Shown here in pieces: positions 20,731 to 63,399 of a stretch of DNA of 64,000 nt; within the stretch, counting starts at the first letter, position 1; each line of letters starts with the position of its first letter. Under the pieces are notes generated by a model. It worked only from the letters and a program-made list of their open reading frames with translations. It made no database searches and was not told the origin of the DNA. The position numbers and the translations under genes are program-made. The stretch comes from Eledone cirrhosa (taxonomy: Eukaryota), in the NCBI GenBank assembly GCA_964016885.1, contig OZ024743.1, positions 120,838,001-120,902,000 on the forward strand, read 5' to 3'.

Positions 20731-20732
20731 GT

Positions 20733-34701: not shown

Positions 34702-34783
<82 letters not shown>

Positions 34784-34784
34784 T

Positions 34785-36459: not shown

Positions 36460-36528
<69 letters not shown>

Positions 36529-37116: not shown

Positions 37117-37270
37117 GTGGTGGAACACTGGAAGGTAATATCCGTAGTGGTAGAGCACTCAGTCCAAGGGACGAGTTAGGTAGAAGTGGTTACACAACAG
37201 TTAGTTCACCATACCGAGAACAAATGTTTGTCCTCGGTATGGTGAACTAACTGTTGTGTAACCACTTCTA
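37117..37270. mobile_element. Fold-back mini-element family C
   Basis: Arms 37181-37222 / 37229-37270, tail on the left; homologous to 60147-60343. Confidence 0.78.
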
Positions 37271-37835
37271 TATATATATATATGTGTGTGTGTGAATATA
37301 TATATATATATATTTATATATATACATATATATATAGTGTTCATGTTTGAGGGTTCTATATTGCCATTTCCGCAGTCAAATGATTGGCCATATAATATAA
37401 ATACCAGAAAAGGATGGTTTGTCATAGAAAGTTTTGTGCTAAACAACAGATAACACACGCAGACATAACACCCTTCTCCATTTCTACCAATGGAATCATT
37501 TTTATTTCTATACTGAAGACGATAAACAGCTTTGTTGCACACACACACACACACACGCACACGCATATAACAAAAATATATTTCTCTTTTCTACCCTGCC
37601 ACCACCATCGCCGCCACCACCACTATCGATACAAACACTCAATTTATTTCAATAGAAAGTCTGAATTTTGACACGTCAGCACGACATCAGCCATATTCAC
37701 AGAACCAGAACTATTTCTTCCCCTTTATTTCTAGGAAATAAATAGATATTCTTAAAAAGACTCCAGTTGCATTTTCGATTTCTTATACTTTCACCCGTGT
37801 AGGACCTCTCGTTTTTTAGTAAAAAAAACACATTT

Positions 37836-37883
<48 letters not shown>

Positions 37884-38926
37884 ATGTGTGTGTGCGCGTG
37901 TGTGTGTATGTGTGCGTTTGTTTGTGTGTTTGTGTCCACGTATGTATGAACACAGAAAAATATCTAAATATATTCAAATACATAGTCGTACATATCTGTG
38001 CACAGTGTCCGCATATGTACACAAACTGGCGCGATTGCACAAACAGACCTGTGTATGTGTATGTTCAAACTTCCAACCACAAATACGCACGCGCTGAAAA
38101 ATAGATAAATGAGTTCATACAAGTGTATTCATATGTGTAAATATATATTTAAATATATTCTATCTCCACGGGAATCAACTTAAAGATTAAATTGGTAGAT
38201 ATTCTAAGGCAAATAATAAGATTAGTGACCAGAGGCAAGCTTGTAGTTTACAAATAACATTGAAAATAACATAAATAAGCAAGGAAAGTGTAGTAAATAA
38301 ATAAAAGATTATACATTTAGTAAAGTGGGGTTATTGTTATTTATGATGTATAAACTAAATAAAAGCTAAACATGAAAAGAGCAATATAGAAACATAGATA
38401 ACGCCAACATATATGTAGGGAAAAAAAACAAATGCTAAAAGTAAAAATAAGAATAAACAAATGTAAATAGTAAAGATTAATAAAATGTACGATATCAAAG
38501 ACTAATTTCAATGGACGTGCTGTTATGATACACAAATCCGTGGGTCATGAAGAGATGCATAATAGTTATGAAAATATAAGAAAATCAAAATTAAATACAA
38601 TAAAATTTAATTGAATTTCAATTCAATTACAGTAAAGGGTCTATACATAGTGAAGTGAACGATAAGGCAAGGTGAATATGAAATAAACGCCACGGATAGT
38701 ACATAAATTATATGAAATAACTAAATAAATCATTAAATCTAAATATAAAAATGGAGATAGAATAGGATGGGTGGGGAAGACGTCATATATGAATGATGGA
38801 AATATCACAATGGGGTGAGGATATATGTATGGGAAAGGAGGTGAATTCTTTCTTATCTCCTAAGGAAAATAATACTCTAAAAAAATGAATCACGCACGCG
38901 TACACATATTCAGACTCATACATGCG

Positions 38927-38993
<67 letters not shown>

Positions 38994-39085
38994 AACAGAT
39001 ATATATAAATATATATCAATATATCTGTATTTCTGTCTAACTGTTTAACTATCTATATTTTTCTCTCTCTTCATATATATATATA

Positions 39086-39432
39086 TTAATAAATGGAAAC
39101 TATATTTATAAAACCATAATTATTTTATTATATACATTTCAAGGACAACCAAGGCATACTTGGTGCGCTTTCATCAGATAAAATACAAGATTTGTTTTAT
39201 AAATATTGACATAACCGTGGAAAAACAACCTTGACGCTTGAAAGTTCACCGGATAGTGAACTACCAAGAATGCCTTGGTTGTCCTTGAAATATATATAAT
39301 AAAATAATTATGGTTTTATAAATATAGTTTCCATTTATTAAAATATTGAATATTTACTCGAAACTGTTGAGTGCTTTATGTCAGTTATAAACTTTTAAGC
39401 TTGTTGGAATCGCAAAAATTAAATATAACTTC

Positions 39433-39435
<3 letters not shown>
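39086..39435. mobile_element. Fold-back mini-element family E, copy 2
   Basis: Arms about 39086-39165 / 39263-39341; tail 39345-39435. Confidence 0.78.
39121..39185 (-). ncRNA. Minimal type I hammerhead ribozyme motif
   Basis: Minus strand: TATTTTAT-CTGATGA-AAG..ACCAAG tatgc CTTGGT..CTT-GAAA-TGTATA-TA-ATAAAATA; 8-bp stem I. Confidence 0.8.
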
Positions 39436-39505
<70 letters not shown>

Positions 39506-39507
<2 letters not shown>

Positions 39508-39700
39508 CGAAGGAAATGTGGTAAGGAACCAGGTGGACCATAACGCACCAAAGTACTCAATACTTGGGGTAGTAGAGTGGGTAATAGGAACCAGTAAGAC
39601 CCCGACGGCTGAGCTCAAGCCGTTTCGACGGCTAATTCTGGACGCGTCCAGATTTAGCCGTCGAAACGGCTTGAGCTCAGCCGTCGGGGTTTTACTGGTT

Positions 39701-39704
<4 letters not shown>
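39506..39704. mobile_element. Fold-back mini-element family A, copy 4
   Basis: Palindrome centred on TGGACGCGTCCA 39639-39650; tail on the left; TA flanks. Confidence 0.8.
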
Positions 39705-39785
<81 letters not shown>

Positions 39786-40137
39786 ATATATGTATATATA
39801 TATATATTTAATGATCAGAAAACGATGGAATTTATTTCAAAGCTACATGTGTTCAGTGATCCTTACAGATGATTCAATATACCAAACCTGTATTTGTTGT
39901 TTAAGCAAGAGGGGGGGGGGGTGTCCACGAAGCTCTTCATGGCTTCCAACGCTTATGGCAGGGGTCCGGAAAGTTATCCTCAAACTAGAAAAAGAATTTG
40001 AATATGTAAATCAGAGTCGACTCCATTAAAGACACCAAAGTGGTAGGTGGGGATATTATAGCAACTGACGGATTAAGCCAACCTCAACTAAGCATCCACT
40101 TAATCCTCTAACACGCCCCAGCAACGCTGCCCAATCC

Positions 40138-43826
<3,689 letters not shown>

Positions 43827-44149
43827 GTGTGCAGTATATGTGTATTAGGTTCCCGCTCGAAAGTGAGGGTGGGGTGTGTATATATATATACATATATATT
43901 TAATGGCTGCCCCCTCGTTATCGAGTATGGCCATTGCACGATATAACATTATTAATAATTATTAATTAATTCTATCATGCAATGCCTTTGCGCGAAGATA
44001 TTCTTTAAAGTGAGGAAAGACTGTGCACTGAGCCAATCCCACTCTCTGTACGATAGTAGCTATAACGCGAAAAGAAGCAAAGATCAACATCATCGCTAAC
44101 TACTGAGCCGCAGGTTTTATATCGGAGTTATCCCAGTATATATATATAT

Positions 44150-44190
<41 letters not shown>

Positions 44191-44198
44191 TGAGAGAG

Positions 44199-44276
<78 letters not shown>

Positions 44277-44277
44277 C

Positions 44278-44319
<42 letters not shown>

Positions 44320-44367
44320 AGATAGAGAGATAGATAGATAGTCACTGAAAGAGAGAGGGGAGAGAGT

Positions 44368-44436
<69 letters not shown>

Positions 44437-44894
44437 TGAGGAAGAGAAAAAGAGATTGAGAAGAGTGTTTTACTTTGCTTCAAGCAGTATAGAACATGTA
44501 GATAGGAAAGATGTTTTAGAGTAGGTTATACCAATAAGATAAATATTAAATTTAATAACCCTTAAAATGATACTTAAGTTTTAGTTCTAAAATATTCAAT
44601 CTTCCTTATATGTTTCGGCTAAAATAACAGGTATCAAAAGTGTTAAGAGTACAGCGGATATATAGGATCATTATATATCCATTAAAGCGCATTCCCGAAT
44701 TACTAAAAGGAAATAATAGACCAAGTTGCATGAAAGAAATGGTAGCTTCACATGACCATGGTGTGGAGATATTGGTGGGAGGAAATCGGTTCAAGTGATA
44801 TAATGGGATTCATTGCGACTATAAGGAGATAAGATAAAAGAAAGAGGGAAAGAAAAATATAGAGGGAAAGGAAAAGATAGAGGAAAAAAGAGAA

Positions 44895-45212
44895 ATAATT
44901 ATTTCTACTTTTGGCAAAAGGCCAGCAATTAAACCAGTGCATTACTGGTACTTTATTTCATCGACCCCGTAAGGATGAAAGGCAAAGTTAACCTCGGCGG
45001 GATTTGAACTCAGAGCATAAAGGGCCGTAACTCTTTACTGCAAAGCATGGCGTCCGACACTACCGATACTGCCAATCCTCCGCCGTTGAGAAATAATTGT
45101 TTCTACTTTTGGCACAAGGCCAGCAATTACCCAGTGCATTACTGGTACTTTATTTTATCGACCCCGTAAGGATGAAAGGCAAAGTAAACCTCGGCGGGAT
45201 TTGAACTCAGAG
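44895..45212 (-). mobile_element. Two SINE S1 copies
   Basis: Reverse complement of core, B-box and tail. Confidence 0.85.
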
Positions 45213-46748
45213 AAATAATGCTCTGTAGTCTGTTGTTAATCTTAGGCTAACAAATGTTAGATTTGATTAAGAGTGTAACGAACATATTCGTTCTGCATTT
45301 TGTCAGTGTGTTTCCTAGGAGATAGTGCATCTATGCAGAAATGTTTCTTGATAGCGATGTTTAACGGCTAGATCCTGCGACTGTTGGGCTGGGGTGTTCG
45401 CCAGAGCGTAATAGTTTCTGTCATATTGGAGTCATTTTCTTCTATACGTATTTCCGTAGGAGGCTCCTGAATGGGCCAGCTATACATCTAGCCTTTTTAT
45501 AATGATGGCCCAGTCACTATCCATGGTTATACATTCAATCAAATGTGATAACATTAGGAAATATGTGTTTAAAGTGTTTTTTTTATGGTGCCAGGAACCA
45601 TTAAGACTGCTTGTGGCGATTGCTTGGACCCAAGATGTCTTCCAACACAATTTCGAATTGTTTGTTATAGCTAGCCCCTACTTCTGCTTCACTGCAACTT
45701 TCCTGAATAAAAAAGAGACCGTTCTGTATATACTCGATCATAGAACTGATAAGGAGGGTTAATCAGTCGATGATAAACTGATATCTTCAGGCGTTTTCCC
45801 TGTACGTGACGGTGTTAATGTCGGAGTGGTAGGTAATAATCTGCTTCGAGTAGACGCGTTAGTCTCAAGATTAATATTATTAGAAGTGTTAAAAGTAGAT
45901 AGACATTTGAGAGAGTATGTAGTAAGGGAAACTTGTTGAGTGCTAGTTATGGACTGTCCACTCCTGTCGGTAGGAATGGCGGTAATATCTTTGGTAGTGT
46001 TATTGTGTTCTTTGGAGTAGATGCAGTAAAAGAACATGACCCCGCGAACTTACGTTGTAAAACATATCCAGCGCAACGAAGTTTACAGCAGGAGCACGAT
46101 CGGGTCATTACACATCCGTATATAGGAAGTTCTCACACGTACATCATATTTCTAGGAGCGCATTAAAATTGCAGAAACACATATTATAGTAGTCAAAACC
46201 ACCGAAAGTAATGTCTTGCGTAAAAAAAGAAATGATTTTATTTTAAAATGCCACAAGTGAGCCATTAGAATTAAATAAGGCCCAGCGGCTATAATAGACA
46301 GATAATTAGTCACTATCTCTCCCTCTATCATCTCTATTTCCTCTTATTTGATTCACTCAATTGACTTTACTTCTCTCCTTCTCTCTTCCCTTTCTGTCTT
46401 GTATTCTTATCTCCTTATATTAGCCATTTATCGCATCACTACACGTGAACTTTTTCTGTGAAATAGATGTTACCACTCTATGATGATAATGGTCAGTAGA
46501 CAAAAAGCCCAAATTTCTTTCGCGCCCCTTGACTTTTAATTCTTACTTATAAATCGAGATACCAATTAAATGAATATGCAATAATCACATCTTCGTCTTC
46601 TTTTAACAACTTTCAAACTAGACATTTAACTGATATATACTAAAACCAATTAATTGTATGATATTTCAAACTTTGTTAGTTATATTTATTTTTAACATTC
46701 GATCTGTACTGGTATAGCCTTCTATAATATATATACATACCCCCCCCC

Positions 46749-46779
<31 letters not shown>

Positions 46780-46784
<5 letters not shown>

Positions 46785-47090
46785 ATTGTTTCTACTTTTG
46801 GCACAAGGCCAGCAATTACCCAATACATTACTGGTACTTTATTTTATCGACCCCGTAAGGATGAAAGGCAAAGTTAATCTTGTTATATAGGCACAAGGAC
46901 AGCAATTTTTGGGGAGATGGAAGTCCATTAAACCGATCCCAGTGCGTGACTGGTACTTTATTTTATCGACCCCGTAAGGATGTAAGGCAGAGTTAACCTC
47001 AGCGGGATTTGAACGCAGATCATAAAGGGCCGTAACTCTATGCTGCAAAGTATGGCGTCCGACCCTCTACCGATACTGCCAAATCACCAA
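46780..47090 (-). mobile_element. Two SINE S1 copies (one partial)
   Basis: Reverse complement of core and tail. Confidence 0.85.
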
Positions 47091-47106
47091 TGATAATAAC
47101 AATAAT

Positions 47107-47445
47107 AGTCTTATAGATATTTCCGTACCAGCTGACAAGAATACATCTATAAAAACAATAGAAAAACAGTCAAAATACAAAGATCAGTAAGTAGAGATCA
47201 GGCGCATGTGGAGGATCACCACAAACATTATCCCTGTGGTGAAAGGAGCATTAGGATTAATACCCAAATCATCAGACCTGCACCATAGCATCCTTCCCTG
47301 CAAATATGAGCTACAGAAGATCAGGCTACTAGGAACAGCACACATTCTCAGACGAGTTCTCTCTACAATGAAAACATCTATTGCCCTAGGTTCAAGGCCT
47401 GAACATAGCAATAGAGAAACAGAACTGAGCTAAACGAAATAGCAC
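47107..47445 (+). mobile_element. R4/Dong-like RLE 3' fragment
   Basis: LIDISVPAD..EKQSKYKD..EIRRMWRITTNIIPVVKGALG..LQKIRLLGTAHILRRVL; ends in (TAA)n. Confidence 0.8.
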
Positions 47446-47869
47446 AATAATAATAATACGGGTTTAGATCGACATCCAGTAATTTCGATCTTATTGTTTG
47501 CAATTTGCTCAACAAATTCATTGGGAACACATGATTGGTTTTAATACATTCCCAGCCAGAAGCTTAAGCTGTGAAAACTGTGTAATTATTGTATAGACAG
47601 ATTAACATATGAAAACGTTAAAGTACTCACAATTTCATCAAATGGAACAGCCAATATCCTCCTAATTTACCACACAAAATTCTGCTGGTGTAAAAAATCC
47701 ACCGGAGTACAAAAATCCACGTCTAAGCTCATACAGTCCTGTTTCAACTTCCATGGAAATTTTGCTGATCATTGATTAATAATAGATATATAACCTATGA
47801 GGGATTTCCCAAAAAAGAAACAAAATATATACATACATATGAATTTAGTTTTCATGGATCCTTTTTGAA

Positions 47870-48300
47870 AGACGTAACATGAAATAATAATAATAAACAT
47901 TTCTAAAATTCCTAGTATATAAAAATAAGATTACAAAGAACAAACGAGAGATTATTAAAATCAATGAAATATCTCTGGATCGGAAAACTGGAGAGTTAAC
48001 AAAAAAGACAGATGGAAAATTGATACATTCGAAATGTGTTGCTTAAGAATATTATATATAAAATAATTCAATACCGTAACAAGTGAGACCTGACAGTAAT
48101 TTGGAAGTAGTCATTATGAAACAAATACTAAAATGTTTCGCTCACATTATGTATATGGATCATGTTATGTTAGGAAAAACTGATTGTTCAAAAGGTAAAA
48201 GGAAAACTACGCATAAAGTTGGGAGGTGGGATGAAGGACGTGAGTGAGATGCAATTTCTGAAAACATCGTGACCTCGGGAGAATCAGAAAACTAGATGTG
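47870..48300 (+). mobile_element. Decayed RTE-like LINE fragment
   Basis: GSENWRVNKKDRWKIDTFEMC resembles the RTE RT C-terminal region. Confidence 0.5.
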
Positions 48301-48713
48301 CAGTGGGATTTTCTGTTATAGGTTTTAATAGCTCTAAGAGGTGCAGATGTAAATGTTTCGAGAAAGGAACACCAATATATTATAACCAACGGTTTAGATT
48401 CACTCAATCGTGAATAGTCAGTCAACATTCTTAATTCCATTTCAAGAAAACACAGCTTTGAAAGTTGACACCTCAAAATGTAACGAATATGTATAGATGC
48501 CAATAATTTTAAAACAGATTGGTGACACTATTGCATAAGATCCCTAAGGACTCATATTGTTACAGCAGACAAGGGATAGGATTGACTGCACCGAACTCCC
48601 TTAATCATGACAAAATAAGTACAAAGGTGAAATTGACGGAATTTCTTTCCCTCACATCACATTGGTCTGATGGTTGAAACTTTTAAAAGAATAAAAAAAT
48701 ATTGAATACAAAT

Positions 48714-48776
<63 letters not shown>

Positions 48777-48864
48777 GGAAAAGAGTCAGACCCCACTCTA
48801 TTACCCTAAGTATTGAGTACTCTGCTGCGTTATGGTCCACATGGTATCTTACCACACCCTCTTT
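48777..48864. mobile_element. Family A tail only
   Basis: CCCACTCTATTACCCTAAGTATTGAGTACT..TTATGGTCCAC matches the family A tail; TA flanks. Confidence 0.65.
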
Positions 48865-48933
48865 GTATATATATACACACATATATATATGTATATATAT
48901 ATATAATATAATATATATATATATATATATATA

Positions 48934-49003
<70 letters not shown>

Positions 49004-49894
49004 TATATATATATATATATATGTATGTATATATTTATATGTATGTATATGTGTGTGTCTATACAAATTTATATATATATATATATGCATATAGATATAA
49101 ATACACGATCGCGCGCGCACACACACACACACACAGACACACAAACCATGAGTTTGGTGATTCGACGGTGAATATGCAACTAAAGTCTATATTAAAAAGT
49201 ATGGTATATATTAGGAATATTCTGAATAAAGACATGGTAGGTAACTGGGCAAAGCGACAAGATTTTATGAAAAAGATGTTCAGAAAAAAAGAAGTGAAAT
49301 TGAAAAGAAAGTAAAGAAATATATGATTAAAATATATGCGATAAAGCACATTTCCATTTAACGTGAAGTTAACTAAAATTTTTATTTTATCTTGTCTTTC
49401 GTGGTACTATTTTCATCGGGTAAATATCATTGAATCTTCCTCTCCCCCTCTCTCTGCCTCCCCCGCTCTCTCTCTCTCTTTCTCTCTCTCTCAGTCTCTA
49501 TCTATCTCTCACAAACTTTGTCTCCCGCCTCCCCTATGCATGTGCGTGTGTGTGTGTGTTTTAGTGCGTGTGTGTACCTGCGCGTCTTATGTACATATGT
49601 AATATGCATACATAGTATAAATATATATGTATATTTTTCTACACTATATTTTTTACACTGAGAGAAATTCCTTTTATCATATATCGACTGGAGGTAGCAC
49701 TGATTTCGCCATCTCCCGAGAGAATCAATGTGCTGAGCATTGCAACGAGCATTGATGCTCCCTGAAAAACTCCGTGTTCTTTGGCCCGGACGATATCACA
49801 CATTTTTCTACTCTTATCCATGCAACCGCCACAACTTGGATACAGCTATAACTGCTGCAACTCTGTAGCAACCATTTTATTTTGTTTCTCGTTG

Positions 49895-50895
49895 AAAATT
49901 TGATTTTTCTATCTCAGCTTATTCTGTTACTCAAATTCTTCTACATCCACAATGAAGCATTTTCTGTCAAGCCCAATACAATGCAGATCGGATATAGGGG
50001 ATCTAGCTACAAACTTGCAACATCAAACCTTAATTGGAAGTCTCTTACACTGTAATATTCATTCCTCAACGATTAAGTATTTCATACCTTACGCTCTTTC
50101 TGTCATACCCACATTCCTTGTAGTCTTCCAAAGACACAGTCAGCTCAACAGTCTCGGTATTTTTGTTAAGTCAAATCATGCAGTACAGTGACAGCTTTGT
50201 GTCGTTATATCTACACACATTCTCAATATGAGCGCTTTCCTGAAATCCACCTGTTTAACAATTAACACCATGCTGAAAACTGGTTACTGGCTCATGAGTT
50301 GTCCGTTCTCACATTCCATGTGGTATATAACGGGATGCAGAATTGTGTCAATGTTCTTTGTATAATCTGTGCTGCATATTTGTTTTAGTGCGTTAGCAAT
50401 GTCACTCAGTACATGATCATGTATAAAAGACGACTTACATCACTTACAGATGACAACCAGCGGCATCAATCCATCTACACCAACTTCTATTGACATGGGT
50501 GGGAAGTACATAATAAAGACAACCCAGAAAGTATTTCAAACTGTGTAGCTTACTTTATTTCCATTTCCTCCAAGCTATCCACGTGCATTGTCTTTTTAAA
50601 GCTAATTACTGCCATAGTTTTATGATGATTTCTTTGTTTAAGATTTCCCGCTTATTTGTGTAATTCTGGTGGAAATTTGATTTTTCGATCTCAGCTTATT
50701 CTGTTACTCAAATTCTTCTACATCCACAATGAAGCATTTTCTGTCAAGCCCAATTAAATGCAGATCTGATATAGGGGATCTAGCTACAAACCTGCAACAT
50801 CAAACCTTAATTGGAAGCTTCTTACACTGCAATATACATTCCTCAACGATTAAGTCTTTCATACCTTACGCTCTTTCTGTCATACCCACATTCCA
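49895..50895. repeat. About 220-bp direct repeat pair
   Basis: About 49895-50117 and 50672-50894 are nearly identical. Confidence 0.85.
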
Positions 50896-51169
50896 TAATA
50901 TAAACGGGAGTACAATGACAGTGCCCCTCTATACTCGAAGAGATCTATCTATTCGAAAGTAAGGTTTATTTCATTATATCCCACATAGTTATAAATATCC
51001 GAAGTTGAAAATGCAATTGGAATCTTTAAAAACGTTTATTATTCGTAAAAATCATGAGTTGCACGATGGCGTAGCCACACAATGTTTGGAAATCGTGAAA
51101 TTGTGAAACCGGTAAAGTTATATTATTGTGAATAAACCTTCTTAATGATTTCAATTGCATTTTCAAATT

Positions 51170-51232
<63 letters not shown>

Positions 51233-51772
51233 TGTGTGTGTGAATGTGTGTGTATGTATGTGTGTGTGTGTGCGTGTATGTATGCGTGTGTATGTATGTG
51301 TGTGTTGCGTGTGTACTATATGTATTATTCATATATATTTTAGAGCTTACATATCGGGTTGTATGATAGCATTACCGTTAAGCTATCATGTCATATTCGC
51401 TCCAGTGTAAGTAGTAAATGATTAATATGTATATTCTCTGTAAATGGATGTAACTACCACATCTCTTTTCTCATGAGAAGTGTTTGTAAATTCGAAATAT
51501 TGATATACAAGGTGATGATATGAACAATTGTTCTGGTTCTGTTTACTCCTATACCTACATACTTGTATTGTAGTGTTTTTCGTAAACACACCAAATCGAA
51601 ATGCTTCATATGACCTATAATATCCTGATATAAACACACATAACCACACACACATACATACACACTCACATACAAATACAATATATATATATATATGTAT
51701 ATATATGTATGTATGTATATATATAAATATACATATGTGCGTGTATGTTCGCGTCATTGAGTATGTGCGTCC

Positions 51773-51849
<77 letters not shown>

Positions 51850-51883
51850 CATACATACATATGTATGTATATTCACATATATG

Positions 51884-51968
<85 letters not shown>

Positions 51969-52033
51969 GTATATATATATTTATATATATATATATATAT
52001 ATATATAAATATATGCATATATATATATATATT

Positions 52034-52089
<56 letters not shown>

Positions 52090-52437
52090 CACACACATGC
52101 ACATATGTATATAATGACAGTGCTAAACACATATTTTGATATACGTTTGATGTGATTTTTCTGAGTTTAACTCTGTTCAATATTTATTATCTAGACTAAT
52201 GTCGCAGCTCTATATAACGTAACTTATAGTTAATTACTAATTAAGTACATTGTGTATTATGTTCTACATTAAATCGCTTGAAATGATTTGCATTCAAGTT
52301 ATTATATTATGTTCAATTTTAATAAGCACTCCTGTGTTAGTTTATTTTTTCACAATTGAGTCTTCTCGAGTTCTTATATACATAAAATTCTTCATGTACA
52401 TATATATATAAATATAAATATAAATATAAATATATCT

Positions 52438-52469
<32 letters not shown>

Positions 52470-52558
52470 TAAAGAGTTAAACAAAATTCAATGAGTATAT
52501 CAAAGAATATTATAACATTTTATTGATCAAAAGAACATCTATTTTATTAATATTTGTA

Positions 52559-52631
<73 letters not shown>

Positions 52632-52666
52632 ATATATGTATATATATGTACATATATACATATGTA

Positions 52667-52745
<79 letters not shown>

Positions 52746-52804
52746 ATATATATATATATGTATGTGTGTGTATATATATATATGTATATATATACACACA
52801 TACA

Positions 52805-52849
<45 letters not shown>

Positions 52850-52877
52850 AAATATGTATATATGTATATATGTACAG

Positions 52878-52932
<55 letters not shown>

Positions 52933-53480
52933 GGATTATATGTATACTGTATTACATACAATTAAATGAAACGTAAATTCCACTCATTTTATGTATTGAG
53001 TACCTTGCCTTAATTGTGAAATTAACTGTGGTCATTATGAATCACTTTGACCAGTGTTGCTACACTTTACATAACCTTCATTATCCGGTGGCGTTTTGAT
53101 GAATTAAAGAATTTGGAACTGTGTTTCTGCCTGTGATTTAGTGTCTTAGATAGTAAAATGTTCAGGTGCTGTGTTACGATATGTATATTAAATCCATGTA
53201 GATCTCAATATTTTCGACATAATTTTGAAGCTTTGGTTATTGCTATATTTACTCGTTACTTTGGTACTATGCAATGGCAGCTAGTTAGGGGATTTGTGTA
53301 ACTTCCAGTTGATGCAAGCCCCTCCAGAAGTTTTCCTATATATATATATATATATCTGTGTGTGTACACAGACACACACTGATACATACGCATACATACG
53401 CATATACCACATACACAATCTAAAACACACACACACGCACACATACATACACACACACACAAACACACACACGCACACAC

Positions 53481-53539
<59 letters not shown>

Positions 53540-53749
53540 TATATACATATATATACTTCCTATTGTTGCTTCCAAGGAGTAGATGTTTTGTGCCTTCACC
53601 CGCTTTCTTTACCTCGTCATTTTTACTGCGGTTATCTTTTTGGTGTGGTAGTGCTAGAAAGCTCGTATTTCTGCAGTTAACACTGACTATAATTTCAAAT
53701 CTTCCTAGCCGTGTGCAGCTTGGTTGCAGTATATTAGTGTTTGTGGGCT

Positions 53750-55800
53750 AATATCGGAAGGCTTGACATTTTCCACCATTAATTTGCATGTTTCTATTTT
53801 CACACTCTTGTATATTTCATTTATGTATTGCTGTAGAAATGTAGAATCTTAAATGCTTTTGACACCAGTGTAACTGGTGACAGTCGTCTTTTGTACAATT
53901 GATGCCATGTCTCAGAGAGCCACTATAACCAACTGTGGTCCCAACACTGTGGAACTCCGCTCACTAACTCAACTTTCACCAAAAGCACTCCGTTTTGTGT
54001 AAATGTTATACTTCTGTTTGAAGTAGTCTTACACCCCAATCATAATGCTATAGGAGCTATCCGACATTAGTTCTCGAATGAAATCCAAGCTAAGTGTTAT
54101 GTAGAAAGTAATTTTCATCCAGGTATTTGATCACGTTTTTTCTGATTATTCGTTCCATTGAGATCAGAAAGATAGGCGTGTAACCTTTAGCATCCACTAT
54201 TCTTCCCTTTTACTTGACAGGAAATATCGTATATATCTTTAAATATTTAGCGACATAACAGAAAGCATTGGAAGGGGGTCCGCAATGACTTTTCTGGTCA
54301 CATTTACATGCTTTTAGAAGAATCGCGGTGACCTCATCCGGCTACGAAGCTGAACAAATATAACACCTTATGGAGGGATTCGATGTTTGCTGAATGCCTA
54401 TGTAGTACTAATATGGTTTGTTTATCAGCATGTCTTCCACCAGGCAGACGAAAAACTTATGAATTACTTATACAATACTTGATTTATCAATTTGGGCTCC
54501 GCAATAAGCGACGTAATTTCTAGGAACAATGGCTCTATCAACGTAATGTTCTGCAACTCTATAGATCAATTTAGACTTCAGTGTATCTTCTATAACCCGA
54601 GTTCTATGTTCTTCTTTCTCCTATCCATAGGATTGAGTATATGTTCAATTCCTAGCACTACCTCTTTTAGATTGGATGTGTTACTGCCTTTTTATTGTTT
54701 AATGAAGCGATTTAAATTGTTTGTTTTTGTCTTATCAGATCGTGTTTCTATTTTGGGGAATTATATTTTGTATGTTGATATTTCTCTATACCAAGTGTAA
54801 TGGCTTCCATTATGTTCATGAATTGCACAAGCTTCATATCACTATCTTGTATAGAGAAACATTTATACCAGCTTTGTTTCAATATCTCTTTCGAAATCAC
54901 GTTCCAGTGATGTATAATGTCTTCATATAGTATCGAATGAATAGAAGTAAACGTACACACACGCACACCAGGTCATAACGCAGAGGAACCAAACTTTCAC
55001 TGTCATCGTCTCCGTCTCTCTCGCCCTCTCCCATCTCTCACTACTATAAGCAAATGGGGTCCCACGCGCTGACCGCCACATGGCCCCGGTAGCTTTGTTA
55101 ACGTTCAAACTTTGTAGAGTTGAAGTGCTTTCTGAAAGTATTATAATGCATTGTGTGCTTGTCTTCATTGCTGATTCGATGCAAGTGAGGATTGCTTACA
55201 CTATTAGATACAATATTAACAGGCTTGGAGTGAATAAATTGCCTCTTTCTCCAATTTCCCCTCGTCGAGAGATACCGCTTAGGTAGAAACTTTCTTACTA
55301 GTGGTGTTGTTTGTTTTATTATTTTGTGTTCACTTTTTAGTTTTCATCAATGTATCTTTCTTGGTTTGTACCTGTTTCGTGTGGCCCTTTTTGTCATCAG
55401 CAACAGCCTTATTTTCACTATGTTTAGCTGCTTTACCTCCACAGCTATCTTCAGTGGCGCCATTGGAGTCAATTGCGCTTGTGTGTTTTGTTTTGTCAGT
55501 TTTCGCACTCACAAAATCCACTTGCCTCTTTCTGGCCTCTGGTGAACCTATGTCACCTTCATTACTCTCTTATCTGTCTGCGGCCTTTTCATCGTTAATG
55601 ATGCTATCTAATAATTTTAGATGCCGCTTGGTAAAGGCATAATAATGAATGAATTCGTTATTTTTCCTGTCTATTCAAGCTATTGATCTGAAGAAATCAT
55701 TGCTATCTTCTTGCCCACCGCAATTAGGCTGCTTGGCATTAAAATGTTTGGTCATACTCCACTGCCATTAAGAGCGTACGTAAATCCTCAATTTGCAAGT
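53750..55800 (-). mobile_element. Highly decayed CR1/L2-type LINE
   Basis: Minus strand has a VSGVPQ..VLGP-like remnant at about 53938-53968 followed by a YADD-like remnant at about 53880-53900; limits uncertain. Confidence 0.45.
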
Positions 55801-56238
55801 TTCTTTGTATCTTGTAAGCGTTGTTTTTAATTATATAACCTTCAATTCAGTTCATTTTGTTGGAATCCATCTGTGTATTTATCGTGAAAATAGAAACATG
55901 TAGAGAGTGAAATAGGTGAATAAAGAGTCAAGTAGAGGGGGACGAGTAAAGAGAGATAGAGAAAGAGAAGTAAAGAGTAAAAAAGAAAGTAAAATGAAAC
56001 AGTGAAAAACACACATAGGAATGTAAAAAGAGAGAGAAGAGGGAAAGGAGGAGAAAGATTGTGAGAGAGCGACAGAGAAAGAACGGGGAGAAAATATATT
56101 TTATAATTTATTTATTTAAACAATCATTGTTTGAATGTGTGTTTATTATCTATATATACACTCATACATGCCTACATATATACAAGCATATATTCATATA
56201 TACATGTTTATGTATACTTACACACACACACACATATG

Positions 56239-56305
<67 letters not shown>

Positions 56306-56313
56306 ATACATAT

Positions 56314-56362
<49 letters not shown>

Positions 56363-57144
56363 CACACCCACACATAGGTTGTATGTTGTGTACGTATTGA
56401 AAATTCAATATGTTTCACAAAGCAGTATGCACTTGCTGAACATTTGCAATAATATTTTGTAAATATCTCTTCAACGAAGCTATGAATGTCAAATTTAACA
56501 CCAGTGCTTGGAAGTACCTTACATTGATTAGAATTTGACACTGGCTAAGGAACACTAGGAACGCCACTTGAGGAATGATCAGTTTAACAATAACAATGTT
56601 GAGTAGATAGATCTCACTATTCAGAAAAATCAATGAGATCAAGCTATCCTCATTTCCATTAATTTCCTTTTGTAAAGTTTCCGGTTCTTTCTGGCTTTCG
56701 ATTCACCTTTTGTTGCTTCAATAAGCTTCAAATAAAATTGATTTTATGTTGGCAATCTATTGTACACTAATCAAAATGAAATGTTATTACAACATCTACT
56801 ATTTTAAAATATGTAATTTATTGAAACATCACAAACCTGACTCATTCGAATCGTTTTATTTCATTCTAGTATTATCAAATCCTTTATAGCATGTAGTAAA
56901 ACTAATTTAGAGAAACATCTATAAAATTTAGCATGCATAATTCCATTTTGAAGGATTGAATTTATCAGCCTGGTATTGTTTATGCTTTGTAAGAATTCTA
57001 TGAGCTTATTACAAATCTTGGTAGTGACTGCTAGAAATATTCACTCACACATGAACCGTATATATGTATTTAAGTTCCTCTCTTTGTCTCGCTACACACA
57101 CACACAGATATCTATATTTGAATTAAAAGCATATGTGAATATGT

Positions 57145-57190
<46 letters not shown>

Positions 57191-58257
57191 GTGTATGTGT
57201 GGGTAAGTATGTGTATGGAAGACAACATATGCGTTCAAGTACATTTCCATTAATGATTTTGCATATTTTAGTTTGAAACAATAACATTTTTAGAGAGACC
57301 AGTGTAATGAAACATCTTTGCCAAATCTAGAAATTGTAATTTGTATGGTGTAATCGTACATTCGTAAATCATCACACCATCACACAGGAGATTTCTTTCT
57401 GTGAACGGATTTTTAATATTAATAAAATCTCCACACACACACACACACTTATAAATATGTATATATATCTGTGTGTGTGTGTGGTGTGTGTTCGTGTTTG
57501 TGTGTGCTTGAATGTGAATCCGTGTGTATATGTGAAGGTGTGAGTGTATATATAATAAATAAATAAATATATATATATATAGTAAATGAGAGAAGAATAA
57601 CGTGATCGGCTGTACAATAGGGTTTATTACCTTAAACGATATCTCGTTAACTTATATATATATATATTTATAATTTTATTCTTTTACTGACTCCAGTCAT
57701 ATTACCGCGACCATTTTGGGGTACCTCTTTCAAGGGACTTAATCGAGCATACAGAGAGCAGTACTTAATTTTACGATATCTATTTTCGAATTGCTATTAA
57801 ACCGCATACTCATAAACACGCACGCGCGCACACACACACACATACCCCCCCCCCCCCACGTCACTGATGAAAATCACTAGTGAAGTTAATACTAATATAT
57901 TTAATGTAGCACCATTCATCTCTTTAGAAGTATTTGAGCAACGAGGATATAAAATTACCCCAATAGCTATTAACGTCTGCTTGTGTACAGCATTATACAT
58001 ATACTTAGTAATTCCCTTTATTAGTAATTTGGTAAATACGCTGAAGTATATATTTCGCAGAGAAATTCTAATATGTACAAAATGTCCGACATTTTACCCG
58101 AATAGATAAGAATATCATTTTGATATTGTTCTATTTTCCTCACGACGAAACTTTACCAGTTTCACAACTTACATTCTTGACTTTCAAAAGTTAGAGAGAG
58201 ATGGAGAAATGTGTGGCTATGCCGATATATAGCTCGGATCTCTCATCTATCTATCTA

Positions 58258-58348
<91 letters not shown>

Positions 58349-58458
58349 GAGTTATAAACTCAAGAGCTATTATATATAGTTATAAACTCAATCTAGCTAA
58401 CTTGGTCATTTGCAATGCAAACACATGTATACTTGTATCAGTGTTTATCCCTATCATA

Positions 58459-58583
<125 letters not shown>

Positions 58584-59249
58584 GCATATATATATATATA
58601 TACAATATATATATGTATATATATGTAGAGAGAGAGAGAGAGAGGGGGATGTGTGTGTGTGAGAAAGAGAGATGGAGAGAGGGGGGAGAGAGATGTACGT
58701 ATACATGTATCCATTTTTAAAAACAGAAATACAAATTTTACAAGATATTTACAATACAATTTAGTGGCAAATTGCACTAAGCCTGTGGCATACGAGCATG
58801 TACGTATGTGATTCAATACTTCTCATAAACGCAGATATGCTTATTCATGCATGCGCTGGAAATAGCATCTATATAAGTGTATGCATGCATCTCTGTGTGA
58901 GAGTATGTGTTTAGATATACACGTTGATTTGTGTGGTTATTTTGTAAAATGACGGAGGCTATTTTACTAATGTCCGTGTGTATTCTATCATTATAGTATT
59001 CTCTCGGTTTTCTCAAAATTTTCGTTTGAAACCACTTAAATCTTTCTCACTACAGCAATCAAATTCTGTCTCTAGTTCGAGGTATAGTCCTATGTGCACA
59101 TCTGATGAATGCAGTGTGCGTGCACTACATATACCCCTCTATTGTAAACAAAATTTACTGTAAACAACGGGTAAAATTTGCCTTACATTCCATATTTCTA
59201 ACATATCGCGTGTTGGTGATTATCTACATAGCATGATACATTCATACAA

Positions 59250-59393
<144 letters not shown>

Positions 59394-59553
59394 GTATAAT
59401 CTAATGTGTAGATAAAAAACTGTAGGATAGATTTTTTAAATCAACATTTCTATTTTCGGTTACTATTTTTGTTATCTGTATTTGAATGTTTAATCAAATA
59501 AGGTTTATCATGGGATTCTAGGAATAGAATGGAAACATACACATTCGTATATA

Positions 59554-59613
<60 letters not shown>

Positions 59614-59728
59614 TCTCTCTCTCTCTCTCGTACACACACATATATATATATGTGTGTGTGTGTATTGTGTCCGCGCGTGTGTTTCTGTGAGTACATGTGT
59701 GTATGCGTATGTGTATGTGTGTCTATTC

Positions 59729-59775
<47 letters not shown>

Positions 59776-60146
59776 GCATATATGCATTATATAAATTACG
59801 TGTATATAGTATATTTATCAGACACACACTGACAGAACTCCACTTACAAGCAAACACAGATACAACGGAATACATAAAACCGCATTTCCTGACCGTCGCT
59901 CTCTCAGATTGAATAAATACATCACCTTTCACAGTACACAGCGTAACTCTGCCATAACTATCTACAGAGACCCACTGGATAGGAAGTATGCCACGTTCAT
60001 CGCATTGTGCGAATATTTCGTAGAACACAACCGCTATATAGTTATTAATCGTCTGTCGTATTACATCTCCGTATAAGCCATAGAACCCGCATTTTAATAT
60101 CCTTAGCTTCAATCGATAGGATGCACGCATATATATATATATATAT

Positions 60147-60340
60147 AAGTGGTTACACAACAGTTAGTTCACCATACCGAGAACAATTGTTTCACCTTAG
60201 CGGATCCTCAGCTCGTAATGGACATAAGTGAAACAATTGTTCTCGGTATGGTGAACTAACTGTTGTGTAACCACTTCTACCTAACTCGTCGCATGGACTG
60301 AGTGCTCTACCACTACGGATATTACCTTCCAGTGTTCTAC

Positions 60341-60343
<3 letters not shown>
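60147..60343. mobile_element. Fold-back mini-element family C with hammerhead
   Basis: Arms 60147-60195 / 60228-60277; tail 60278-60343; TA flanks. Confidence 0.8.
60178..60215 (-). ncRNA. Minimal (38-nt) type I hammerhead ribozyme motif
   Basis: Minus strand: CGAG-CTGAGGA-tCC gctaa GGt-GAAA-CAATTG-TT-CTCG; palindromic stem III ACAATTGT. Confidence 0.75.
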
Positions 60344-60381
<38 letters not shown>

Positions 60382-60427
60382 TATATACACTTATATATAT
60401 ATATATATATACATATATATATACACT

Positions 60428-60476
<49 letters not shown>

Positions 60477-60489
60477 ATAAGTGTATATA

Positions 60490-60539
<50 letters not shown>

Positions 60540-60546
60540 TATATAC

Positions 60547-60619
<73 letters not shown>

Positions 60620-61007
60620 AACATATGTGTGTGGGTGGATGTGTATGCATGTGTGTGTGCGTGTGTATGTGGCGAACCTAAGTTGGTTTGCCGGTGAAAT
60701 GCAAACCGATACCTAACAGTGCCTTCTGTTGAAATACCTGAAAAGTCCGATAACTCCATATCATTTCACTGATGATGTGTCCAAAATTATCCATCAGATA
60801 TATATATATATATATATATTAGTTTTTTCGTTGTTTTGGGATTGTATGGTTGGGTTTAGCCTGCCGCAGTTTTCAATTTGTCAAGCTATCTAAACGTAAT
60901 GTTATTACTCTGAGGACCTACCCTTATTGAGTGCTTTGCTACTCATTCCTAATTGTAGGTCGACTCTGCTTGGCAGCAGCCAAAGCTTCGATTTTACTAA
61001 GCATCCA

Positions 61008-61086
<79 letters not shown>

Positions 61087-61088
61087 AC

Positions 61089-61252
61089 TTTTAATATAGA
61101 TGAGATTCTACAGGACTATGACTGTTTCATTTTTTAGAATAAAACAGTTCTAGTCCTGTAGAATCTCATCTATATTAAAACTTTTATACTCTGCTATGTA
61201 TTGAGTACCTTAATTACTGTGGTTACCTCCGATTCAACCCGGAATAACTTAC

Positions 61253-61253
<1 letters not shown>
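61089..61253. mobile_element. Fold-back mini-element family D
   Basis: Arms 61089-61127 / 61142-61180; tail on the right; TA flanks. Confidence 0.75.
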
Positions 61254-61288
<35 letters not shown>

Positions 61289-61318
61289 ATATCTTATGGA
61301 TAATTTAGGATTCAACTG

Positions 61319-61454
<136 letters not shown>

Positions 61455-61685
61455 TGGAATAGAATAATGTATTTGACAATAGAATTACTACTAGAACTAC
61501 TATGAAAATTACATTGCTTTTCATTTTACTGAATATACTGAAAGAAATACACGACAAGTAATAACAAAAGTAATTGCGGTTAAGTTTACAATTTTAGAAT
61601 TAGTCTGCTTCACACAAAATAAAAAACAAGCCGGAAGGTAATAATAAATGCTAATCTGCAACATACAAATTCACTAGGAGTAGAA

Positions 61686-62023
61686 GGTGCATAGCTTAGT
61701 AGTTAGAGCGTCTGACTTACAATCGTGAAGATGTGAGTTCGATTGCCGGACCGGGCTGTGTTTTGTGTTCTTGAGCCAGACACTTTATTTCACATTGCTT
61801 CAGTTTACTCAGCTGTAGAAATGTGTTGTTACGTCACCAGCGTCACGATGTATCGGCCTTAGCCTTTCCTTTGGACAATATCGGTGACGTGGAAAGGGGA
61901 GACTATCATGCATGGGCAACTACTTGACTTCCACAAAAACCTTGCCCGGACTTGTTCCTCGGAGGGCAACTTTCAAGGTGTAAATCCCATGGTCACTCAT
62001 GATCGAAGGGTGCCTTTTCCCTT
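61686..62023 (+). mobile_element. tRNA-derived SINE family S2 with RTE-like 3' part
   Basis: A-box TAGCTTAGTAGTTAGAGCG, B-box GAGTTCGATTGCC, core TGTGTTCTTGAGCCAGACACTTTA; 3' part GCATGGGCAACT..ACCTTGCCCGG..CCCATGGTC recalled as RTE-related. Confidence 0.75.
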
Positions 62024-62361
62024 TAATGTTCTAAATAATTCTGCTAAATTAATACGTAATAAATCTATATTTAAAATTAACTAATTTATAAACGTAGAAA
62101 TAAATCTTTAAAATTCCAAAATTATCTTTATATAAAATGTAAAAATAGATTCATGTTTCTTAAATTGAACAGTGACCGTCAGATCAACGAAAACGAAATT
62201 GCGTGAATCTCAGAGAAATTTACTCAGAAATTTGAAACCAAATGATTGAAATGGGGCAAAAACGGAAATATAAGTTAGCCAAACAGCACCTACGAATAAC
62301 TTTAAACTGATCCTCGCTCACTCAATTTCCATGTTTTATGCATATCTGGTTTATTTTACAG

Positions 62362-62448
62362 GAATGAACATTTTCGTCGCCTTTTTCGTCTTGTTGCTAT
62401 TGCTGGCAGAATCCACTCCTCGGGCGGCCTCGTCCATTCCTTTAATAG
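62362..62448 (+). CDS. Candidate host exon encoding a signal peptide (copy 1)
   Basis: TTATTTTACAG acceptor, ATG at 62364, MNIFVAFFVLLLLLAESTPRAASSIPLI, AG|GTGAGT donor (phase 1). Confidence 0.7.
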
Positions 62449-62488
62449 GTGAGTCAATCTCATTTTCCACCACTTATTTATGTTACAG

Positions 62489-62572
62489 GAATGAACATTT
62501 TCGTCGCCTTTTTCCTCTTGTTGCTATTGCTGGCCGAGTCAGTCCCTCATGCCGCAACAGTTCCATTGATAG
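62489..62572 (+). CDS. Candidate host exon encoding a signal peptide (copy 2)
   Basis: TTATGTTACAG acceptor, ATG at 62491, MNIFVAFFLLLLLLAESVPHAATVPLI, AG|GTGAGT donor (phase 1). Confidence 0.7.
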
Positions 62573-63399
62573 GTGAGTTTTTCTCCATTCTCTACCACTG
62601 ATTAGAAAAACGATGTTTGTTTCACCAATGACGTCATCGTTTTCACGATCCCATACCCATAAAACGTTTGACCTTAGTAATGCATTCTTTCGTTAATCTC
62701 ACAAGAAAGCACTACTACCGGTCAAACCTCTCACCCAAGAGTGTAATACCCTCTTTGTGCAATGCTTAGGTAATCTAATCATATCTTCATCACTCATGCA
62801 CGAGAGCACCATAGGTAACATAAGATTGATATTTAAAAGCATTTCACTTAACTTGGGACGAACGTTTGGATTAAATTTAAAATGTAATGATTTCTGGAAA
62901 GAATTAATATTTACACAGCAAATTTACCTACCATCAAATGAAAAACATTTTATCTAAATAGCACATAATAATGCCCGGAAAGCATTGCAAAAATCATCGA
63001 TTGGGTTTTTAAATATTTACATTTAATATATTATACTGTTTCAGTGAAAGTATAAAGATAGTTATGTACAGCACGTCTTAATTATAAGGATCATTATACT
63101 TTCGAATACATAGATTAATATATAAGTTGTGTAGACTGCTAATTTTATTCAGAGCCTTTCAATATCTAGCTAGATGGAAGTATTTATATTTCTATCTTAG
63201 GAATGAAATAGGATGAACATTTACGTTTTACAACACGGTATAAGATATACGTCAATTTCTGTTTAATTAACGAGGAACATAATTATTTCTAACATAATTT
63301 ATAGGAATTTAAACACACCCAGTGATGGGTCGGCTAGAATAAGTATATCTTTCTAAATATCATACAGTTCTAAATCTTGGCAGATAGCAAAATAGATTA

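What the first reader, a model, noticed from the sequence alone, without database searches (positions are those of the whole stretch)
62362..62572. Tandem duplicated signal-peptide exons 40 nt apart: candidate sterically mutually exclusive exons
Seen: two paralogous exons (87 and 84 nt), each with TACAG|GA-ATG, a hydrophobic signal-peptide-like ORF and an AG|GTGAGT donor. Many differences are synonymous (GCA/GCC, GAA/GAG, TCC/TCA, GCG/GCC, CCT/CCA, TTA/TTG), and both splice-site pairs are retained, which suggests selection on both. The intervening intron (62449-62488) is only 40 nt, probably too short to splice. Inference: an unidentified secreted protein with alternative signal or propeptide N-termini. 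Joining both exons would also be in frame.
Basis: partly seen in the sequence, partly recalled or inferred. Interest (0 to 1): 0.75.

Follow-up and report, generated by a model that had tools for sequence, protein, structure and literature searches.

The report
Either-or pore exons, octopus chloride receptor
These two side-by-side exons are not signal peptides but alternative versions of the pore-lining helix of an octopus acetylcholine receptor that is likely inhibitory (chloride-passing); transcripts carry one, the other or neither, likely because the 40-base gap between them is too short to splice, a switch already known from the matching exon of an insect receptor.

Summary
The two exons and the 40-nt intron are real, but they are not signal peptides. 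They encode alternative M2 pore helices plus M2-M3 loop of a nicotinic receptor subunit with the anion-type PAK motif (AChRB clade) in an octopod; the ligand-binding/M1 exon lies 162 kb upstream, the M3 exon 57 kb downstream. Among 12 named full-length isoforms listed, 7 use A, 3 use B, 2 use neither, none both. Contigs of six probable RNA runs show B joined to M3 in 6 and A in 5, with no A-B joint. A 307-nt block including the intron is identical in an organism whose flanks differ by about 17%. Every branch-point candidate lies within 32 nt of A's donor, so steric exclusion is likely; both-exon and no-exon forms stay in frame. B differs by V13'L and a shorter loop; Aplysia and Lingula relatives show the same V/L exon pairs. 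Closest known: insect alpha6 exons 8a/b/c, the homologous exon. Not found in print in 10 searches, but present in RefSeq models; this scan noted it twice before in other genomes.

The parts
62362..62448 (+). Exon A: M2 pore helix (4'-20') and M2-M3 loop, ancestral-type form (V13', T22', R24', 30-residue span)
   Evidence: joined to the M3 exon in contigs of X1, X6, X8, X10, X14
62449..62488 (+). 40-nt intron between the alternatives; branch-point-like YTNAY adenines at 62462, 62476, 62480 (14, 28, 32 nt after A's donor) and one at 62445 inside exon A; three YCAY motifs
   Evidence: no difference in organism H; no A-B joint in 6 of 6 contig runs guessed to be RNA
62489..62572 (+). Exon B: alternative M2 helix and loop (L13', V22', H24', one residue shorter, V29')
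   Evidence: joined to the M3 exon in contigs of X1, X4, X6, X8, X10, X14
62304..62610 (+). 307-nt block with no difference in organism H: 58 nt before A, both exons, the intron, 38 nt after B
   Evidence: records 9-12; flanks 32 substitutions in 183 nt, P about 4e-12 for 136 unchanged intron bases at that rate, edges chosen after looking
1..62361 (+). 3' part of the 162,387-nt intron from the ligand-binding/M1 exon (ends G000:C4:120737974) to exon A; filled with retroelement fragments and microsatellites
   Evidence: no third M2 copy in 334 kb of C4
62573..64000 (+). Start of the 57,486-nt intron to the M3 exon (starts G000:C4:120958059; last coding exon near C4:120970750-120971184)

Best explanation
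Exons A and B are tandem duplicates of the exon for the M2 pore helix and M2-M3 loop of an octopod nicotinic receptor subunit that is likely anion-selective, and transcripts carry A, B or neither, likely because the 40-nt intron is too short to be spliced. Shown: gene identity and exon order (M1, then A or B, then M3); both exons are spliced to M3; nucleotide-level conservation of the whole block. Inferred: (1) any branch point for B lies within about 32 nt of A's donor, or inside A's last bases, so U1 at A's donor and U2 at B's branch point cannot be used together; because A+B would stay in frame, nonsense-mediated decay cannot do the job (about 75%). (2) The conserved intron flanks hold regulator sites that set the A:B ratio by cell type; a YCAY cluster points to a Nova-type protein (about 30%, a lead only). 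(3) B changes the pore-facing 13' residue from Val to Leu and shortens the M2-M3 coupling loop while the PAK selectivity motif, in the shared upstream exon, stays the same; so the two forms would both pass chloride and differ in gating, desensitisation or conductance (about 60%). (4) The no-M2 form would be non-conducting and possibly dominant negative (about 35%).
For: Identity: PDB hits for the exon peptide 9 of 9 AChR; Pfam LBD exons upstream on the same strand; upstream exon 100% identical to Octopus bimaculoides XP_014776336 over 150 aa; all exons from ligand-binding domain to C-terminus map in order on C4; full isoforms pass both Pfam cut-offs; alignment to human alpha4 puts Pro/Ala at -2'/-1' where alpha4 has Gly/Glu, and the A/B change at 13'. 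Exclusivity: of 26 cluster members 15 were listed; 12 are full length: 7 A, 3 B, 2 neither, 0 both; O. bimaculoides and O. sinensis each have all three forms; a second, unnamed cluster (95% identical overall) has B unchanged in 4 of 4. Contigs: B to M3 in 6 of 6 and A to M3 in 5 of 6 contig runs guessed to be RNA (six studies, five organisms), A-B joint in 0 of 6. Selection: no exonic substitution listed in any of 7 contig runs while intron pieces differ by about 6-17%. Steric rule: donor to branch point under 50 nt counts as steric interference (PMC5740500, passages); here at most 32 nt. Anion type: PAK motif defines the AChRB family, AChRB1 is a chloride channel in oocytes (bioRxiv 10.1101/2025.04.02.646353, passages); the gene groups with Lymnaea subunit I (support 98).
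Against: Contigs drop rare variants, so rare A+B molecules are not excluded; the runs are RNA only by the tool's guess; the one raw-read RNA run (X21, 2% read) gave 0 reads and is no test. RefSeq isoforms are computed models and would tend to drop a two-M2 form. The shortest spliceable intron in octopods is unknown to me (search 70: 0 papers) and branch points were only pattern-matched. X4 shows no listed A-to-M3 loose end. No current has been recorded from either form; two of the three octopus AChRB genes gave no current as homomers, and this gene is probably one of them, so anion selectivity rests on motif and tree. YCAY motifs outside the conserved block are kept in organism H no better than chance (3 of 5, read). 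L13' is common in single-exon relatives (25 of 118 peptides).
Confidence: 0.8

Rival explanations
1. Same exons, but exclusivity comes from competing RNA base pairing (docking site and selectors, as in Dscam1) or an editing-type duplex, which would also explain the frozen nucleotide sequence and the identical 5' halves.
For: 307 nt unchanged in organism H including synonymous and intron sites; 5' halves of A and B identical at 12 of 12 comparable codons; coleoid editing sites have conserved flanks (recalled, no call).
Against: Local fold z = -0.8; no long perfect complement in 334 kb (best 13 nt, E 1.2); duplex scan of 399 windows near the pair and next to the M1 and M3 exons: shuffles did as well in 23 of 24, 11 of 30, 1 of 30 and 4 of 30 for four queries; no A>G difference in exons in the contigs. 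Most of the two long introns was not scanned with G-U pairing (timed out).
Confidence: 0.12
2. Exon B is a recent, nearly neutral duplicate; A is the working exon and B-containing or skipped forms are tolerated noise.
For: A is the commonest annotated form (7 of 12) and matches the family consensus; 5' halves and some intron flank are still alike; an M2-skipped form also turns up for the single-exon paralogue type (P0240), so skipping alone proves little.
Against: 3' halves differ at 7 of 9 comparable codons with frame and splice sites intact; B peptide unchanged in transcripts 95% identical overall; B joined to M3 in 6 of 6 contig runs; no substitution in B in organism H.
Confidence: 0.05
3. 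One reading: alternative signal or propeptide exons of an unknown secreted protein.
For: Each exon has an early ATG followed by a hydrophobic run; a weak Pfam match to the DIM peptide family (E 0.24-0.35, below cut-off).
Against: Exact identity with the M2 segment of named receptors and splicing into the M3 exon; the exon boundary recurs in many relatives.
Confidence: 0.01

Closest known systems
Insect nAChR alpha6 mutually exclusive exons 8a/8b/8c (PMC8505678, PMC1919356, PMC5111602; passages read)
   Same: Tandem, mutually exclusive copies of the exon for TM2 and the TM2-TM3 loop of a nicotinic subunit; conserved even at nucleotide level within a genus. The octopod cation-type (alpha7-like) gene on C2 has the same phase 1-1 exon, single in the part scanned, so it is the homologous exon.
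   Different: Different subunit clade (PAK, anion type, versus cation type), two copies not three, a 40-nt spacer; forms A and B both turn up in all runs and genomes checked. Separate origin inferred from the tree, not formally tested.
AChRB family of lophotrochozoan ACh-gated anion channels: Octopus AChRB1-3 (bioRxiv 10.1101/2025.04.02.646353; abstract, passages, section 20), Lymnaea LnAChR B and I (named records; PMC4193815 passages)
   Same: PAK motif, vicinal Cys in loop C, 61% identity to LnAChR I and 52% to LnAChR B; three PAK genes in this genome (C4, C19, C3) against three AChRB genes in the preprint.
   Different: The preprint text has no occurrence of 'splic' or 'exon' and used the longest isoform per gene. 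This gene is probably AChRB2 or AChRB3, both silent as homomers: AChRB1's transcript number matches the C19-type protein by an accession offset that I recall and could not check.
Sterically exclusive exon pairs (alpha-tropomyosin exons 2/3, recalled; 57 of 629 human clusters in PMC5740500, passages)
   Same: Donor to branch point under 50 nt; frame-neutral exons.
   Different: Here the whole intron is 40 nt, not only the donor to branch-point distance; not tested experimentally.
RefSeq isoform models of this gene (O. bimaculoides XP_052824820/821/822; O. sinensis XP_036360176, XP_029637701, XP_036360178)
   Same: Exactly the A, B and neither forms.
   Different: Automatic models under unhelpful names; no description of the switch, its conservation or mechanism.

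Membership tests
Nicotinic Cys-loop receptor, alpha-type subunit | Ligand-binding domain with Cys-loop and four-helix membrane domain | tested here: met
   PF02931 216.8 bits and PF02932 122.3 (A) / 114.8 (B) bits, over cut-off; exons map in order on C4
Nicotinic Cys-loop receptor, alpha-type subunit | Vicinal cysteines in loop C | tested here: met
   Present in the genomic exon translation and aligned with those of alpha4
AChRB (lophotrochozoan ACh-gated anion channels) | Pro-Ala-Lys at -2' to 0' before M2 | tested here: met
   definition
AChRB (lophotrochozoan ACh-gated anion channels) | Groups with Lymnaea B/I-type subunits, apart from cation-type alpha7-like subunits | tested here: met
   Quick tree of 54 rows, M2 exon removed: 24-row molluscan clade with LnAChR I, SH-aLRT 98 (careful search unfinished; rows chosen by similarity to this gene)
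AChRB (lophotrochozoan ACh-gated anion channels) | Chloride-selective current on ACh | not testable with these tools
   Shown for AChRB1 only; AChRB2 and AChRB3 gave no homomeric current
Mutually exclusive tandem exons | Homologous, similar length, same phase, same structural element | tested here: met
   87 and 84 nt, phase 1-1, 23 identical residues
Mutually exclusive tandem exons | Each exon is spliced to the flanking exons | tested here: met
   A-M3 and B-M3 joins in contigs; M1-A-M3 and M1-B-M3 proteins
Mutually exclusive tandem exons | Never both in one transcript | tested here: inconclusive
   0 of 16 full-length proteins and 0 of 6 contig runs show both, but contigs drop rare forms and the raw-read run gave no reads
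Steric-interference class | Donor to branch point under about 50 nt | tested here: met
   Whole intron is 40 nt; YTNAY candidates at +14, +28, +32 and -3; true branch point not mapped
Steric-interference class | Lengthening the intron releases joint inclusion | not testable with these tools
   needs a minigene
Docking-site/selector class (Dscam1-like) | Conserved complementary intron element pairing near each exon | tested here: inconclusive
   None found above shuffles; about 14 kb of 220 kb scanned with G-U pairs
Signal peptide | At the N-terminus of the protein | tested here: not met
   Segment starts at residue 324 of 544-545

The most novel reading that the evidence does not exclude
A Val/Leu switch at the 13' gate of inhibitory acetylcholine receptors, made by either-or M2 exons, is a recurring device across Spiralia (octopods, Aplysia, Lingula, perhaps the annelid Dimorphilus), separate from the insect alpha6 case. 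It would let one gene make fast- and slow-desensitising chloride channels, could account in part for the two ACh chloride currents long known in Aplysia neurons, and in octopods is locked by an unspliceable, frozen 40-nt intron. The boldest form: the A/B pair is ancestral to the clade, and octopus paralogues kept one form each (C19 gene A-like; C3 gene L13' with the same short loop as B).
Probability: 0.3. Interest if true: 0.72.

Novelty: new variant of a known kind. Interest (0 to 1): 0.5.

Why it matters
Acetylcholine was recently shown to be inhibitory in the octopus visual system through AChRB channels, and two of the three genes were silent when expressed alone. A splice switch that swaps the pore helix, plus an in-frame form without it, means that isoform identity must be known before such tests are read, and gives two natural variants differing at a gate residue and the coupling loop for a direct gating experiment. 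It is also a clean case of repeated evolution of the same splice switch on the same exon in insects and spiralians, and a natural test of the minimum intron size in cephalopods. It does not open a new class of mechanism.

Tried and rejected
Signal peptide or DIM-like peptide: rejected. Third M2 copy: none in 334 kb of C4; single copies in the scanned parts of the paralogues (40 kb of C19, 30 kb of C3, 30 kb of C2; the C2 intron upstream was only partly scanned). Local RNA structure: z -0.8. Rfam: 0 matches in the window. Raw RNA reads: X21 gave 0 reads from 2% of the run, no test; no holder is on record as RNA. Missing cover of the 40-nt intron in the contig runs proves nothing and is not used. 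Read-through ORF search for the intron in other genomes: 47 hits, all matching only the exon, none continuing into this intron. Search for further B-like proteins: none beyond those already seen among 100 hits. Alternative M2 forms in other clusters: of 25 clusters looked up, two different M2 peptides were seen in 3 (Octopus, Aplysia, Lingula) and two in tandem in 1 (Dimorphilus model); none among the listed members of the other 21, including bivalve and Haliotis relatives; only up to 15 members per cluster are listed. Telling homology from convergence with the 29-residue peptides: L13' forms share only 19-21 identities with each other, no more than with V13' forms, so undecided. van Nierop 2005 was not held. 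No structure or complex was predicted: it would not separate the hypotheses. Literature searches listed no paper describing this splice switch; subscription journals are not covered, and the closed supplements of the AChRB preprint may show which isoform was cloned.

Full report
Observation. The window is G000:C4:120838001-120902000 of a 3.0-Gb genome. Exon A (62362-62448, 87 nt), the 40-nt intron and exon B (62489-62572, 84 nt) are as described, with TACAG|GA acceptors and AG|GTGAGT donors. The repeat unit is 127 nt. Both exons are phase 1-1 and multiples of three.

What the exons encode. Read in the phase of the splice sites, the peptide of A matches only acetylcholine receptor chains in the PDB (9 of 9 weak hits) and positions 31-59 of Pfam Neur_chan_memb (E 0.09). 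Ligand-binding-domain exons lie on the same strand 100-107 kb before the window; the last of them runs through M1 and ends in the PAK motif and a phase-1 donor. That exon is 100% identical over 150 aa to an Octopus bimaculoides receptor. Mapping the named isoforms on 334 kb of C4 places ligand-binding exons, A, B, the M3 exon and the last exon in order; the introns are 162,387 and 57,486 nt. So the whole window up to 62361 is intron, the ATG is M5' of the pore helix, and the signal-peptide reading fails. The organism is an octopod by protein identity to named records. There is no third M2 copy in the gene, and the paralogues on C19, C3 and C2 have one copy each in the parts scanned.

Either-or use. 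Of 26 members of the protein cluster, 15 were listed and 12 are full length: 7 carry A, 3 carry B, 2 carry neither, none both; O. bimaculoides and O. sinensis each have all three forms, Argonauta's one model has A. Four unnamed assembled transcripts, two of them measured at 95% identity overall, carry B unchanged. In contigs of six runs guessed to be RNA (six studies, five organisms), B continues into the M3 exon in 6 of 6 and A in 5 of 6 (no such loose end listed for X4); no A-B joint is listed in any. Several of these contigs also have two unlaid letters before the acceptor AG, as expected of a join to the M1 exon; the letters were not shown, so that is inferred. Limits: contigs drop rare forms and give no expression level; the only raw-read RNA run gave no reads; RefSeq isoforms are computed.

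Selection on the DNA. In run X20 (organism H, probably DNA) overlapping contigs tile the pair, and 62304-62610 has no difference, including the whole 40-nt intron, while the flanks carry 32 substitutions in 183 nt plus indels and soon stop aligning. At that rate 136 unchanged intron bases have P about 4e-12, and the intron alone without its splice signals about 0.01 (edges chosen after looking, one organism). In organisms A and C the nearest listed differences are at 62311 and 62613. The intron's length and sequence are therefore constrained.

Mechanism. A+B would be in frame, so decay cannot enforce exclusivity. PMC5740500 (passages) counts donor to branch-point distances under 50 nt as steric interference, in 57 of 629 human clusters. 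Here the whole intron is 40 nt and the YTNAY candidates lie at +14, +28, +32, or at -3 inside exon A. I rate steric exclusion at about 75%; the minimum intron size in octopods was not found. RNA pairing was looked for and not found: fold z -0.8, no long complement, duplex scan no better than shuffles after four queries (about 14 kb scanned). A YCAY cluster is a lead for Nova-type choice of exon, nothing more. The no-M2 form is also in frame; a bovine alpha7 transcript lacking exon 8 is reported to inhibit full-length channels (PMC5111602, passage; that this exon holds M2 is recalled), which suggests but does not show a similar role.

What the switch changes. Against human alpha4 the subunit has Pro-Ala at -2'/-1' in place of Gly-Glu, in the shared upstream exon, so selectivity should be the same in both forms. 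B differs at 13' (Val to Leu), 22', 24', 29' and by one residue less in the M2-M3 loop. That 13' faces the pore as part of the hydrophobic gate and that the M2-M3 loop couples binding to opening is established knowledge of Cys-loop receptors, recalled. The likely effect is on gating, desensitisation or conductance; untested.

Relatives. In a quick tree with the M2 exon removed (54 rows, careful search unfinished) the gene sits in a molluscan clade (support 98) with Lymnaea subunit I, apart from the C19 gene, which groups with Lymnaea subunit B. Aplysia's gene in the same clade has three RefSeq isoforms with V13', L13' or no M2 exon. A Lingula gene outside that clade has a V13' form in 3 isoforms and an L13', one-residue-shorter form in 1. 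A Dimorphilus model holds two M2 segments in tandem. The other 21 of 25 clusters looked up showed one M2 form among listed members. L13' occurs in 25 of 118 peptides, so three V/L pairs are suggestive, not overwhelming. Each pair shares its own gene's residue type at 24' (Arg/His, Lys/Lys, Pro/Pro), which leans to separate duplications, but the homogenised 5' halves in octopus show that conversion can erase history; the genomic layout in those species was not seen.

What is known. Insect alpha6 has mutually exclusive exons 8a/8b/8c for TM2 and the TM2-TM3 loop (PMC8505678, passages), older than 300 million years and in one case identical at nucleotide level across Drosophila (PMC1919356, passages). 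The AChRB family, defined by the PAK motif, was described for octopus in bioRxiv 10.1101/2025.04.02.646353 (abstract, passages and section 20 read): AChRB1 is an ACh-gated chloride channel of the visual system, AChRB2 and AChRB3 gave no homomeric current, and the text never mentions splicing or exons. This gene is probably AChRB2 or 3 (accession offset recalled; tree consistent); the closed supplements may say which isoform was cloned. PMC4193815 (passages) recounts two chloride-dependent ACh responses in Aplysia, one fast- and one slow-desensitising. Bioarxiv 10.1101/2025.06.15.659772 (passages) only led me to the AChRB preprint. Ten searches listed no paper on this switch. This scan noted the same pair twice in other genomes (e1-8669970, e1-8830959); I had reached the reading before that look-up, and those notes are not counted as support.

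Verdict. Real, selected, either-or pore exons in a probably inhibitory octopod nicotinic receptor. It works like the insect alpha6 exon 8 cluster and meets the tests for mutually exclusive tandem exons as far as contigs allow; it is not a signal-peptide cassette. New variant of a known kind; interest 0.5.

Noticed in passing
window 62350-62407 versus 62477-62534: The 5' halves of A and B (with the acceptor) are identical at 56 of 58 nt while the 3' halves are near saturation: gene conversion between the copies or a shared nucleotide-level constraint; unexplained.
   Followed up: partly
window 62449-62488 and 62573-62672: 10 YCAY motifs in these 140 nt (0.14% of windows in the gene reach this; shuffle p 2e-4, chosen after looking); possible Nova-type control, conservation outside the block unremarkable.
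   Followed up: partly
window 62422, run X4: Contigs lacking one base in exon A (depth 51 of 1129); error, allele or other; would break the frame.
   Followed up: no
G000:C3:216841629-216841715 (L026 1501-1587): The C3 paralogue's single M2 exon is 84 nt with L13' and the same short loop as exon B; all 4 short-loop peptides among 118 (three genes) have L13'. Its gastropod and bivalve relatives have the full-length loop.
   Followed up: partly
P0101 and P0237 (Ruditapes isoforms X1, X2): Same M2 but only 90.5% identical overall and different at the end of M1: probably alternative copies of the large ligand-binding/M1 exon in a bivalve relative.
   Followed up: no
P0077 (Dimorphilus DgyrCDS7085): Gene model with two M2 segments in tandem (F13' and L13'), probably mis-joined alternative exons.
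   Followed up: partly
gastropod relatives: Gastropods have three gene copies in this clade with different M2 sequences (several on one contig in Patella, Lottia, Gigantopelta), where octopods have one gene with two M2 exons.
   Followed up: partly
window 3325-6341, 18983-20396, 22403-23620 (-); 20712-21422, 41107-43029 (+): Broken ORFs that look like non-LTR and Penelope-type retroelement pieces (judged by eye) inside the long intron.
   Followed up: no
window about 60148-60277 and 61090-61180: Short, near-perfect palindromes (arms of roughly 45 and 30 nt, seen by eye), probably MITE-like repeats; a tRNA-like SINE head near 61690-61760.
   Followed up: no
G000:C11:23.62-23.93 Mb: Cluster of more than 20 single-exon-like Cys-loop ligand-binding genes, probably the cephalopod chemotactile receptor array (label recalled).
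   Followed up: no
G000:C4:120955255-120955454: 200 N in the intron between exon B and the M3 exon, so that intron's length is approximate.
   Followed up: no
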